Assembly: GCA_964455655.1 (NCBI GenBank)
Contig: CAYVWZ010000001.1
Span: forward strand, 58,825 to 119,996
Source: Candidatus Woesearchaeota archaeon
GTDB lineage: Archaea; Nanobdellota; Nanobdellia; SCGC-AAA011-G17; JACPNG01
Length of the DNA: 61,172 nt
Direction of reading: 5' to 3'
Every line of letters begins with the position of its first letter. Position 1 is the stretch's first letter. Below, in pieces: positions 42,092 through 46,835 of this stretch. Below the pieces are notes generated by a model. That model had not been told where the DNA came from. It ran no database searches and was given only the letters and a program-made list of their open reading frames with translations. The translations under genes and the position numbers were made by a program.

Positions 42092-42137
42092 GATATCATG
42101 CAATAGACATTCATTAGAAATTCTTAAGAAAATTCCA
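42092..42137 (-). other. 3' arm of the pre-23S processing stem (pairs with 45013-45056), with BHB motif
   Basis: About 30-bp duplex GATATCATGCA...AGAAATTCT; central AGAA/UUCU helix flanked by 3-nt bulges. Confidence 0.8.
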
Positions 42138-42139
42138 TC

Positions 42140-45010
42140 GCACTATTAGTATGTGCAGGCTTAACATCTCGTTACCTTGATGCTTATACCCCACACCTAT
42201 CAAACGAGTGTTCTTTCTCGTGTGCTCCTTCTCTTTTCAAGGAGGGCTTCGTTCTTAGATGCTTTCAGAACTTATCCCGTAAGGCGTAGCTGCTCGACCT
42301 GCCTTGTCAGACAATCGATACACCAGTGGCCTCGAACCATCGTTCCTCTCGTACTAAATGGTCCTTCCCCTCAGAAGATCTGCAAATCCGGTAGATATCA
42401 TACAAACTGTCTCGCAACGTTCTTAACCCAGCTCGCGAACCCTTTTAATAAGTGAACACCTTCACCCTTGGCCGCTTCTGCACAGCCAGGATAGGATGAG
42501 CCGACATCGAAGTAGCAAGCAGCGCCGTCGATATGAGCTCTTAGGCGCTACGACTCAATTATCCCCGAGATAGCTTTTCTGTCATGTCTAGCCCCCATCA
42601 ATGAGGACATAGAAGTTCGCTAGACCCGACTTTCGTCCCTGGATTTCGTATTGTTTGAAATCCAGTCAAGCCAGCTTTTGCTCTTGCACTCTACAGAGGA
42701 TTTCTAAACCTCTTGAGCTGACCTTTGGGCCCTACTGATATCTTTTCAGCAGGGTCCCGCCCCAGGCAAACTGTCCGCCAGTAGCTGTCCTCCATAAGGA
42801 GTCAAGCGATGTAGAATGCAGAGGGTAGTATCTCACTGAAGTCTACACGTAAACTGGCGCCTACGCTTTAACGACTCCTACCTATGCTTAACACCACACT
42901 CCACACCGCAACCACAAGCTACAGTAAAGTTCTACGGGGTCTTCGCTTCCCACCGGAATTCTCTGGACTTTGCACCAGAAAGTTATGTTCGGGAGGATCC
43001 ATGTAAAGACAGTGGGGACCTCGTTACACCATTCATGCAGGTCGCCAATCAAGCGACAAGGCATTTCGCTACCTTAAGAGAATTATAGTTATTCCCGCCG
43101 TTTACTAGCTCTTCACTCCCTTGAAAAGAAGCTTAAAGTACTAGCACTGGGCAGATGTCACTTCCTATACAAACCATTACTGGCTAGCAGGAAGTTACGT
43201 TTTTGTTAAACAGTCGGGCCCCCTTAGTTATTGCATCCTGTACTCGCATTTTTACAACACAAGCGCAGGAACCCCTTATGCCGAAGTCACGGGGCTAAAT
43301 TGCCGAATTCCTTTACATAGTTTGTCCTCTCATACCTTGGGCTCCTCACCCAGGACACCTGTGCCGGTACTGAGTACGGATATAGATGATCCTTCTCGTC
43401 TGCTTTTTCACGGGCTCTAGGCCTCTACCTAACTAACAAACGCTAGCCACTCTAAGATTTTCTCAAGTTCTCACCATTACAGTACTCCCTTGACATATTC
43501 TTATTCGCAATCACGACAGTGATTGTAGGTATAGCCCCAAACGTCAGCATGACGAGCTTTCGTTACCGAGCGTACATCTATAGTACTGGAATATTAACCA
43601 GTTTACCTCTTCCCACGATTCTTATTAAGAATGCGGTTAGGACCGACTAACTCTTAGCTGATTTGCAGTGCTAAGAAACCCTTGTCCTTCCGGTATTAGA
43701 GATTCTCACTCTATATAGGTCCTACTACTACCAGGATACTTATTCGAACACGGTCCACCAACACTTACATGAAGGCTTCTATCCATGCACGACACCTGTC
43801 TACCACAACGTCTATTCGACGCATCTAGAGTATCGGTAGTTCATTTAGCCCCGTCCATTTTCGGGGCACTACACCTTGACGGGTGAGCTATTACGCTTTC
43901 TTTAAAGGATGGCTGCTTCTAAGCCAACCTCCCCGCTGTCTCTGGTGTAATACACCCTTCACCCTTTCACACTTAATGAACATTTAGGGACCTTAACTCT
44001 AGGCTGGGATGTTCCCCTTTTGGGACACACGCTTACCGCGCGCCCCTGATTCCCACCGTCTACGATGTTCCCACATTTGGAGTTGAACAAGAAGCCGAGA
44101 GATTTCTCTCCCAAAACCTCAAATCCGTCGCTCTACAATGAAAACTATCTCGGGTGAGACTATTCTGAGGCATATTTCGACAGGAACAGGCTATGAGCGA
44201 GTTCGATTGGCTTTTCACCCCTAATCCTGAGTCAGAAGAGCACATGTCCATAGCACCTCTTCGGGCCTCCACCCCATATTACTGAGGCTTCGCCCTGCTC
44301 GGGATTAGATCACCCGCGTTCCGGTCAGATCCCCGTGACTTAAGGCACTTTCACACCTCGCTCCTCGCAAGCTGCGAGCTTTCGCTTTCGCTCCGCGTTC
44401 GTACCGTTAGTACTTACGCTCGCCACGAAGACCAACTCCCTGGCCCGTTATTCAAAACGTACGGTGCAACTTTCGCCGCACCATTCTATAACCGTAAGGT
44501 TTCAGGATCTTTTCACACTCTGTCACGAGTGCTTTTCAATGTTCCATCACAGTACTATTCGCTATCGGACTCAAGACATATTTAGCGTTAGGAGTTGATG
44601 CCTCCCATATTCGTGCCTCATATCCAAGGGACACTACTCTTGATACTTGCCCATCTTTCACGATAATCCTACGGGGCTATCACCCTGTATCGCAAATCAT
44701 TCCAGATCACTTCGGATTACCATACGAAGACTTTATGCAAGTCACACCACATGTCGCTTCTATTTCTAGAAGAGATTCGGTTTGCGCTGAACGGTTTTCG
44801 CTCGCTGTTACTCACCGCATCTCGATTGATTTCTTTTCCTGCGGGTACTTAGACGCTTCAGTTCCCCGCGTTATATACCCTCTCGGGCTTAGAAGGAAGT
44901 CCTATTCAGGAATCTTAGGTTCGTAGGCCGCATGCGCCTCGCCTAAGCATTTCGTAGCTTGCCACGCCCTTCTTCTTTGTTCTTGAGCCGAATCATCCAC
45001 CTTACGGCGT
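42140..45010 (-). rRNA. rrl: 23S ribosomal RNA (ends approximate)
   Basis: Sarcin-ricin loop AGUACGAGAGGAAC, PTC GAUGUCGG, AGCGAAGACCCC; about 2.87 kb, so no large intron. Confidence 0.97.
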
Positions 45011-45164
45011 AGTGGATTCTATATAGAATTTCTAATGAATGCCTATGCATGATATCATGAAAATGAAAATCATTTTCTCTGCCTCGTAAGGCAATGATAT
45101 CCTTCACCCACAATCTTACGATTCGTGAGCTGCATCGATATGTGTCAAATTGATGACTATGAAA

Positions 45165-45276
45165 TGGACTCGTCGGGATTCGAACCCAAGACCTCCGCCT
45201 CACTTGGGAAGTCTTAGACTTTAATCTCAAACGTTTCCGTGCAAGGGCGGCGCTCTACCAGCTGAGCTACGAGCCC
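45165..45276 (-). tRNA. tRNA-Ala(UGC) with a 39-nt intron at position 37/38 (intron 45201-45239)
   Basis: GGGCUCG/CGAGUCC acceptor stem with G3-U70, anticodon UGC, T-loop UUCGAAU, canonical BHB (CUUG/CAAG central helix). Confidence 0.95.

Positions 45277-45362: not shown

Positions 45363-46835
<1,473 letters not shown>

What the first reader, a model, noticed from the sequence alone, without database searches (positions are those of the whole stretch)
42505..42566. Non-canonical peptidyl-transferase A-site cleft: U2452, U2453 and U2499 (E. coli numbering)
Seen: the 23S reads GGGGAUAA-UU-GAGUC (45 nt apart from UAC-U-UCGAUGUCGG) instead of GGGAUAA-CA-G and UAC-C-UCGAUG; the changed positions are 42558, 42557 and 42511. 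Known: C2452 is near-universal; U2453 and U2499 resemble eukaryotic LSU rRNA; each change has been selected in the lab as an anisomycin, chloramphenicol or sparsomycin resistance mutation in haloarchaea. Inference: a naturally remodelled drug-binding and A-site pocket.
Basis: partly seen in the sequence, partly recalled or inferred. Interest (0 to 1): 0.6.

Follow-up and report, generated by a model that had tools for sequence, protein, structure and literature searches.

The report
Common archaeal ribosome active-site variant
The three unusual bases in this archaeon's ribosome catalytic centre are real, but the same combination is the normal state in many of its relatives and in well-known cultured methanogens, so it is an ordinary lineage trait rather than a special remodelling.

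Summary
Observation confirmed. In the single 23S rRNA gene (42126-45024, minus strand), window bases 42558, 42557 and 42511 are U2452, U2453 and U2499 in E. coli MG1655 numbering. The rest of the peptidyl-transferase core is canonical archaeal.

The premise that C2452 is near-universal fails in Archaea:
- U2452 occurs in 7 of 8 genomes of the window's family and 23 of 73 of its order (Woesearchaeota-type DPANN).
- The exact triple occurs in 21 of 73 genomes of that order, 24 of 55 sampled Methanomassiliicoccales and at least 17 of 84 sampled Methanosarcinales.
- The carriers include every rRNA operon seen in complete genomes of cultured Methanolapillus and Methanimicrococcus, and the operons seen in Methanolobus.
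- Methanosarcina carries U2452/U2453 with C2499, and a 2.4 Å ribosome structure exists for that genus.

U2452 almost always sits on a U2453 background, and it appears separately in several distant orders. By analogy with C2452U mutants of Halobacterium, Thermus and yeast, it probably weakens binding of A-site-cleft drugs. That is inference only; selection for it is not shown. Natural variation of the archaeal active site is already published (Nissley et al. 2024). This scan has also noted U2452-type variants in other DPANN genomes.

Low interest: a new member of a known kind.

The parts
42126..45024 (-). 23S (LSU) rRNA gene, full length, no intron, the only copy found in the assembly
   Evidence: Rfam RF02540, 2481.7 bits, model 1-2987. 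A 501-nt stretch of it (42300-42800) matches only once in the 930-kb genome, and RF02540 gives only this one match.
42552..42566 (-). 5' strand of the peptidyl-transferase central loop, E. coli 2444-2458 (GGGGAUAAUUGAGUC)
   Evidence: Sequence. Numbering against MG1655 rrlB. Infernal alignment.
42558..42558 (-). U2452, one wall of the A-site cleft (C in the Rfam archaeal consensus and in E. coli)
42557..42557 (-). U2453, faces U2500 at the base of helix 89 (A in E. coli, where A2453 pairs with U2500)
   Evidence: The pairing is taken from crystal structures described in PMC4690841 and in Nissley et al..
42511..42511 (-). U2499 (C in E. coli and haloarchaea, A in most of this archaeal class)
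42501..42515 (-). 3' strand of the central loop, E. coli 2495-2509 (CUACUUCGAUGUCGG). U2500, C2501, G2502, A2503, U2504, G2505 and U2506 are all canonical.
45165..45276 (-). Spacer tRNA-Ala (anticodon UGC) with an intron of about 41 nt
   Evidence: Rfam RF00005, 57.8 bits, with alignment. ARAGORN finds nothing here.
45363..46835 (-). 16S (SSU) rRNA gene of the same operon
   Evidence: Rfam RF01959, 1408 bits.

Best explanation
This is the working 23S rRNA of a Woesearchaeota-type DPANN archaeon, in a standard 16S - tRNA-Ala - 23S operon. U2452/U2453/U2499 is an inherited, lineage-typical variant of the archaeal peptidyl-transferase centre, not a change peculiar to this genome.

Shown here:
- The catalytic and substrate-holding nucleotides are all canonical: G2061, A2062, C2063, G2447, A2450, A2451, U2500-U2506, G2553-U2555, G2583-U2585 and A2602.
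- The same triple is fixed in relatives and in distant cultured methanogens.

Inferred from published structures:
- A2453 pairs with U2500, G2454 pairs with C2498, and base 2499 is wedged between them.
- The window therefore replaces the A-U pair closing helix 89 by a U.U opposition, with U instead of C or A as the wedged base.
- U2452 keeps a pyrimidine as the cleft wall, but swaps the N3 acceptor and N4 amino group of C for N3-H and O4.

In archaea base 2504 is rotated away from 2452 and the uL3 loop is shorter, and Nissley et al. argue that this relaxes the constraint on this patch.

The likely side effect is weaker binding of drugs that stack in the cleft (anisomycin, chloramphenicol, pleuromutilins), as in C2452U mutants. 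Whether that was ever selected for is unknown.
For: - Numbering and bases.
- The rest of the core is canonical.
- Single full-length copy.
- Family: 7 of 8 genomes with the stretch have U2452.
- Order: 73 species representatives have an archaeal stretch. 23 are U2452/U2453 (21 with U2499), 37 are C2452/U2453 and 13 are C2452/A2453.
- Rest of the class: mostly C2452/A2453/A2499. U2452 occurs in only 2 of 75, both inside a family whose other members are C2452/U2453/U2499.
- Named 23S genes with U2452: Methanosarcina, Methanolobus, Methanococcoides, Methanimicrococcus, Methanolapillus, Methanocalculus, Methanomassiliicoccales.
- M. hadiensis: 3 of 3 operons.
- Methanosarcinales sample: at least 49 of 84 have U2452, 17 with the exact triple.
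- Methanomassiliicoccales sample: 24 of 55 have the exact triple.
- Published natural PTC variation in Archaea, and the uL3/2504 argument: 10.1101/2024.11.12.623245.
- The M. acetivorans PTC superposes closely on that of H. marismortui: PMC12605026.
- C2452U phenotypes: PMC2275155, PMC7345174, PMC13462262.
Against: - No experiment exists on any of these ribosomes with respect to drugs.
- The structural consequences for U2452 and U.U at 2453/2500 are inferred, not seen.
- Yeast C2452U is temperature- and cold-sensitive and has a 60S biogenesis defect. The change is therefore not automatically neutral, and its repeated fixation may need compensation or selection that I did not identify.
- The pattern survey only counts genomes whose flanking motifs are exact and whose rRNA was assembled. 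That was about 30-40% of the DPANN MAGs sampled and 55-70% of the two methanogen orders.
- Related genomes are not independent samples.
Confidence: 0.82

Rival explanations
1. Adaptive drug evasion. U2452, on the U2453/U2499 background, was repeatedly fixed because it protects the ribosome from natural inhibitors that bind the A-site cleft. It would then be an intrinsic-resistance trait rather than a tolerated variant. This is compatible with the lineage-wide distribution; it differs only in the cause.
For: - C2452U gives resistance to anisomycin (yeast), to tiamulin and chloramphenicol (Thermus) and to sparsomycin (Halobacterium, Thermus). C2499U gives sparsomycin resistance.
- The same dinucleotide UU at 2452-2453 has appeared in at least three distant orders.
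- Yeast C2452U has a fitness cost, which argues that fixation might need a benefit.
- Nissley et al. raise the same idea for other archaeal PTC variants.
Against: - No drug data exist for any natural carrier.
- Carriers live in very different habitats (groundwater DPANN, marine and gut methanogens), with no known common inhibitor.
- Yeast C2452U is hypersensitive to sparsomycin, so effects depend on the drug.
- Sister species with C2452 are just as frequent in each order, as expected for a weakly constrained site.
Confidence: 0.15
2. Assembly or sequencing artefact, or a chimeric or contaminant rRNA contig binned into this genome.
For: The assembly is a MAG of 37 contigs. rRNA operons are often mis-assembled or mis-binned, and such cases were seen in other bins.
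Against: - The operon lies inside a 120-kb contig.
- The stretch is 85-88% identical to the 23S of same-family genomes, which carry the same three bases.
- The full-length covariance-model score shows no break.
Confidence: 0.02

Closest known systems
23S rRNA of cultured Methanolobus (M. vulcani, M. bombayensis, M. profundi), Methanimicrococcus stummii and Methanolapillus ohkumae
   Same: Exactly U2452, U2453 and U2499, with an otherwise canonical archaeal core. The state is present in the 2 operons seen in the complete M. stummii genome, the 3 seen in M. ohkumae, and all 2-5 operons of the unnamed complete genomes of the order sample.
   Different: Different phylum (Halobacteriota against DPANN). 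The helix 89 stem sequence differs. They have U2057-A2611 instead of C2057-G2611.
Methanosarcina 23S rRNA (for example M. hadiensis); a ribosome structure is solved for M. acetivorans (PMC12605026)
   Same: U2452 and U2453 in all three operons. The published PTC superposes closely on the canonical H. marismortui PTC.
   Different: C2499 rather than U2499. I could not fetch M. acetivorans by name, so its state is inferred from every Methanosarcina-sized genome in the sample.
Methanomassiliicoccales 23S rRNA
   Same: U2453 and U2499 in all 55 sampled, U2452 in 24 of them.
   Different: They also carry C2503, where the window has the canonical A2503.
Divergent peptidyl-transferase centres of Thermoprotei and Methanomethylicia (Pyrobaculum calidifontis ribosome; Nissley et al., bioRxiv 10.1101/2024.11.12.623245)
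   Same: Natural, clade-wide variation in the 2447-2453 and 2500-2504 patch of archaeal 23S, at positions known from resistance mutants. Tolerance is explained by the archaeal uL3 and 2504 geometry.
   Different: That set changes 2447, 2453 (to C), 2500, 2501 and 2504. The window keeps G2447, U2500, C2501 and U2504 and changes 2452, 2453 (to U) and 2499. Position 2452 is not discussed as variable in the text I read.
Laboratory C2452U mutants (Halobacterium halobium, Thermus thermophilus, yeast C2820U)
   Same: The same base at the same position of the A-site cleft. They show that the ribosome works with U2452.
   Different: These are single mutations on a C2452-adapted background, with growth defects in yeast. 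Here the base is the natural state together with U2453 and U2499.

Membership tests
Archaeal large-subunit rRNA (Rfam RF02540) | Full-length match to the covariance model above the gathering score | tested here: met
   2481.7 bits against a cut-off of 50, model positions 1-2987, not truncated.
Functional ribosome with a canonical catalytic core | Conserved G2061, A2062, C2063, G2447, A2450, A2451, C2501, U2504-U2506, G2553, U2585, A2602 | tested here: met
   All are present in the alignment to E. coli numbering.
Functional ribosome with a canonical catalytic core | It is the organism's only LSU rRNA gene, so it must be the one used | tested here: inconclusive
   One copy was found, but the assembly is 87.9% complete. 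A second copy cannot be excluded.
Divergent archaeal PTC of the Pyrobaculum type (Nissley et al. 2024) | Changes at 2447, 2500, 2501 and 2504, and C at 2453 | tested here: not met
   The window has G2447, U2500, C2501, U2504 and U2453. It shares only the general phenomenon.
U2452/U2453 archaeal PTC state (Methanosarcinaceae, Methanomassiliicoccales, Woesearchaeota-type order) | U at 2452 and 2453 in an otherwise canonical archaeal central loop | tested here: met
Drug-resistant ribosome (C2452U / C2499U phenotype) | Reduced inhibition by anisomycin, chloramphenicol, sparsomycin or pleuromutilins | not testable with these tools
   Only the base identity matches. There is no phenotype for any natural carrier.
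Eukaryote-like 2453/2499 state | U at both positions, as in eukaryotic 25S/28S rRNA | not tested
   No eukaryotic LSU sequence or consensus was available to the tools used. The claim rests on memory.

The most novel reading that the evidence does not exclude
U2452 is a recurrent, order-dependent convergent change in Archaea. It becomes fixable mostly after position 2453 has turned to U, and it has been fixed separately in DPANN, Methanosarcinales and Methanomassiliicoccales. On this reading the cause is protection of the ribosome from natural inhibitors that bind the A-site cleft. That would make many archaea, including model methanogens, intrinsically insensitive to a whole class of PTC drugs.
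Probability: 0.18. Interest if true: 0.45.

Novelty: new member of a known kind. Interest (0 to 1): 0.2.

Why it matters
For this window it matters little: the gene is a normal rRNA with a state shared by many archaea.

The wider point is a useful correction. Published conservation tables list C2452 as 100% conserved (PMC7345174, Table 3). Genome data show instead that U2452 is the fixed natural base in large archaeal groups, including model methanogens.

Anyone using C2452 as an invariant landmark, or designing or interpreting PTC-drug experiments in methanogens or DPANN archaea, should know this. U2452 is almost always nested within U2453 backgrounds. That is a small, testable case of order-dependent evolution in the ribosome's oldest region.

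Tried and rejected
1. A maximum-likelihood tree of 23 relatives' 23S stretches, meant to count independent origins. Two same-genus rows fell in opposite halves, probably because of introns and ragged ends. I did not use its count of 5 changes. I relied instead on the family codes and on the distance between orders.
2. blastn-based extraction of domain V truncated many rows. It was replaced by motif-anchored extraction.
3. ARAGORN found no tRNA in the spacer. Rfam finds an intron-containing tRNA-Ala.
4. A literature search for 'U2452' gave no paper. I found no explicit published statement that U2452 is natural in methanogens.
5. I could not fetch a named M. acetivorans or Haloferax 23S.
About 20 of its hits, with spacing other than 65 nt and in bacteria, are chance matches outside rRNA.
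It was solved through handles.
8. Pseudogene or second-copy explanations were rejected: the gene is single and full length.

Full report
**What is there**

Rfam finds a standard archaeal rRNA operon on the minus strand:
- 16S at 45363-46835.
- A spacer tRNA at 45165-45276. It is tRNA-Ala (UGC) with an intron of about 41 nt.
- A full-length 23S at 42126-45024 (2481.7 bits, model 1-2987, no truncation, no intron).

The window lies in a 120-kb contig of a 930-kb, 37-contig assembly that is 87.9% complete and holds this 23S stretch once.

**Checking the observation**

The minus strand reads GGGGAUAAUUGAGUC at 42566-42552 and CUACUUCGAUGUCGG at 42515-42501.

I fetched rrlB of E. coli K-12 MG1655 (2904 nt). 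There GGGGAUAACAGG begins at 2444 and CACCUCGAUGUCGG at 2496. A first E. coli strain had operon-specific indels and was discarded for numbering.

This gives 42558 = U2452, 42557 = U2453 and 42511 = U2499, as claimed. The Infernal alignment to the archaeal LSU model agrees at top posterior probability. Its consensus is C (upper case) at 2452, and lower-case a and c at 2453 and 2499.

A 107-row alignment indexed to E. coli shows every other core position canonical for an archaeon:
- A2055, G2058, G2061, A2062, C2063
- G2447, A2450, A2451
- U2500, C2501, G2502, A2503, U2504, G2505, U2506
- G2553, U2554, U2555, U2572
- G2583, U2584, U2585, A2602

**How common the state is**

- Own family: 8 of 17 genomes have the stretch assembled, and 7 of them have U2452/U2453/U2499.
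- Own order: of 240 species representatives, 73 have an archaeal-type stretch.
  - 23 are U2452/U2453. Of these, 21 have U2499 and 7 also have U2503.
  - 37 are C2452/U2453.
  - 13 are C2452/A2453/A2499.
  - None combines U2452 with A2453.
  - Carriers are spread over ten family codes, and several families are mixed.
- Rest of the class: in a sample of genomes at least 85% complete, 75 have the stretch. The usual state is C2452/A2453/A2499. U2452 occurs twice, in a family whose other members are C2452/U2453/U2499.

About 100 hits are true 23S genes with the fixed 65-nt spacing. They come from:
- Methanosarcina, Methanolobus, Methanococcoides, Methanimicrococcus, Methanolapillus
- Methanocalculus, Methanomicrobiaceae
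- Methanomassiliicoccales and Methanomethylophilaceae
- Woesearchaeota, Nanoarchaeia, Aenigmatarchaeota, Nanohalarchaeota

Rfam confirms full 23S genes in five named archaeal examples.

Methanosarcina hadiensis has U2452/U2453 in 3 of 3 operons.

In a 151-genome sample of that order, 84 have the stretch:
- At least 49 carry U2452, in all 2-5 operons of complete genomes. 17 of them have the exact triple.
- 24 are C2452/A2453/C2499.
- 1 is mixed.
- 10 were not listed.

In 81 Methanomassiliicoccales, 55 have the stretch. All are U2453/U2499/C2503, and 24 also have U2452.

The exact triple is therefore normal in three distant archaeal orders.

**What it most likely does**

Published crystal structures show A2453 paired with U2500, G2454 paired with C2498, and base 2499 wedged between its neighbours (PMC4690841; Nissley et al.).

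The survey supports the 2453-2500 pair. Two families of the window's order have U2453 together with G2499-A2500, which is the flipped Watson-Crick pair. The window has U opposite U there.

U2452 keeps a pyrimidine wall for the A-site cleft but changes its hydrogen-bonding face. Anisomycin stacks on C2452 and bonds to its N3. Yeast C2820U (the equivalent of C2452U) is viable and resistant to anisomycin, which no longer changes chemical reactivity at that base in the mutant (PMC2275155).

Other published phenotypes:
- C2452U gives tiamulin and chloramphenicol resistance in Thermus (PMC7345174).
- C2452U and C2499U give sparsomycin resistance in Halobacterium (PMC13462262).

Nissley et al. report that archaeal PTCs vary more than bacterial ones across 2447-2453 and 2500-2504. 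They attribute the tolerance to a rotated 2504 and a shorter uL3 loop, and they note the overlap with resistance mutations. The 2.4 Å M. acetivorans 50S has a PTC that superposes closely on the canonical H. marismortui PTC (PMC12605026).

My reading is a tolerated, inherited variant with a probable side effect on drug binding (confidence about 0.8).

The adaptive reading, selection by natural inhibitors, is not excluded (about 0.15). Convergence and the fitness cost of yeast C2452U speak for it. Against it are the even mix of C and U among sister species and the lack of any phenotype data.

An artefact is very unlikely.

**Comparison and novelty**

The window is not of the Pyrobaculum type, because it keeps G2447, U2500, C2501 and U2504. 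It is a further member of the U2452/U2453 state seen in Methanosarcinaceae, Methanomassiliicoccales and its own order.

I found no paper that names natural U2452, and one paper tabulates C2452 as 100% conserved. The distribution shown here is therefore a modest correction to a textbook assumption, not a discovery about this genome.

Earlier notes of this scan report U2452-type and more divergent PTCs in other DPANN genomes, so the scan has met this before on other DNA.

**Limits**

- The pattern survey counts only exact flanking motifs and assembled rRNA.
- Related genomes are not independent samples.
- A tree meant to count origins was unreliable and was not used.
- The eukaryote comparison and the state of M. 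acetivorans by name were not verified.

Noticed in passing
Relatives L006, L007, L021, L022 (G044, G019, G051, G025) and many rows; Methanomassiliicoccales loci such as L039, L056: A2503 is replaced in some lineages. This nucleotide is listed as over 98% conserved and is the target of the RlmN and Cfr methyltransferases. It is U in many genomes of the window's order and C in all 55 sampled Methanomassiliicoccales. The window itself has A2503.
   Followed up: partly
rows of family codes f19 and f7 (for example G022, G057, G195); loci L015, L023, L024: These relatives have U2453 with G2499-A2500. That is a flipped Watson-Crick version of the A2453-U2500 pair seen in crystal structures. U2500A is itself a known resistance mutation in Thermus.
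   Followed up: partly
Relatives' 23S genes, for example L014, L020, L028, L029, L031, L082 (one search split hits; lengths): Many relatives have the domain V region split by insertions of about 85 to 750 nt. The splits fall at positions that correspond to window coordinates of about 42476-42488 and 42413-42417, and are probably rRNA introns. The window's own 23S has none.
   Followed up: no
window 45165-45276 (-): The spacer tRNA-Ala (UGC) carries an intron of about 41 nt. ARAGORN misses it, but Rfam finds it.
   Followed up: yes
L014 (G006, same family): This relative reads GGCAUAAUUG, that is C2447 together with U2452/U2453 and C2499. G2447 is otherwise invariant in the table. An earlier scan note (e1-5776313) describes the same combination in another genome.
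   Followed up: no
L105 (Neobacillus mesonae FJAT-13985, NZ_KV440949.1): A bacterial 23S gene (Rfam bacterial LSU, 2928.7 bits) from a cultured Bacillus relative reads U2452 with A2453. This could be operon heterogeneity, a resistance mutation or a sequencing error.
   Followed up: no
L041, L058, L084, L128; G049:C4 and G230:C132; G244 and G359: Signs of mis-binning. Archaeal methanogen-type 23S contigs sit in bins labelled Clostridiales, Bacillota, Eggerthellaceae and Waltera. Bacterial-type PTC stretches sit in two DPANN bins. Two methanogen assemblies hold both C2452/A2453 and U2452/U2453 operons.
   Followed up: no
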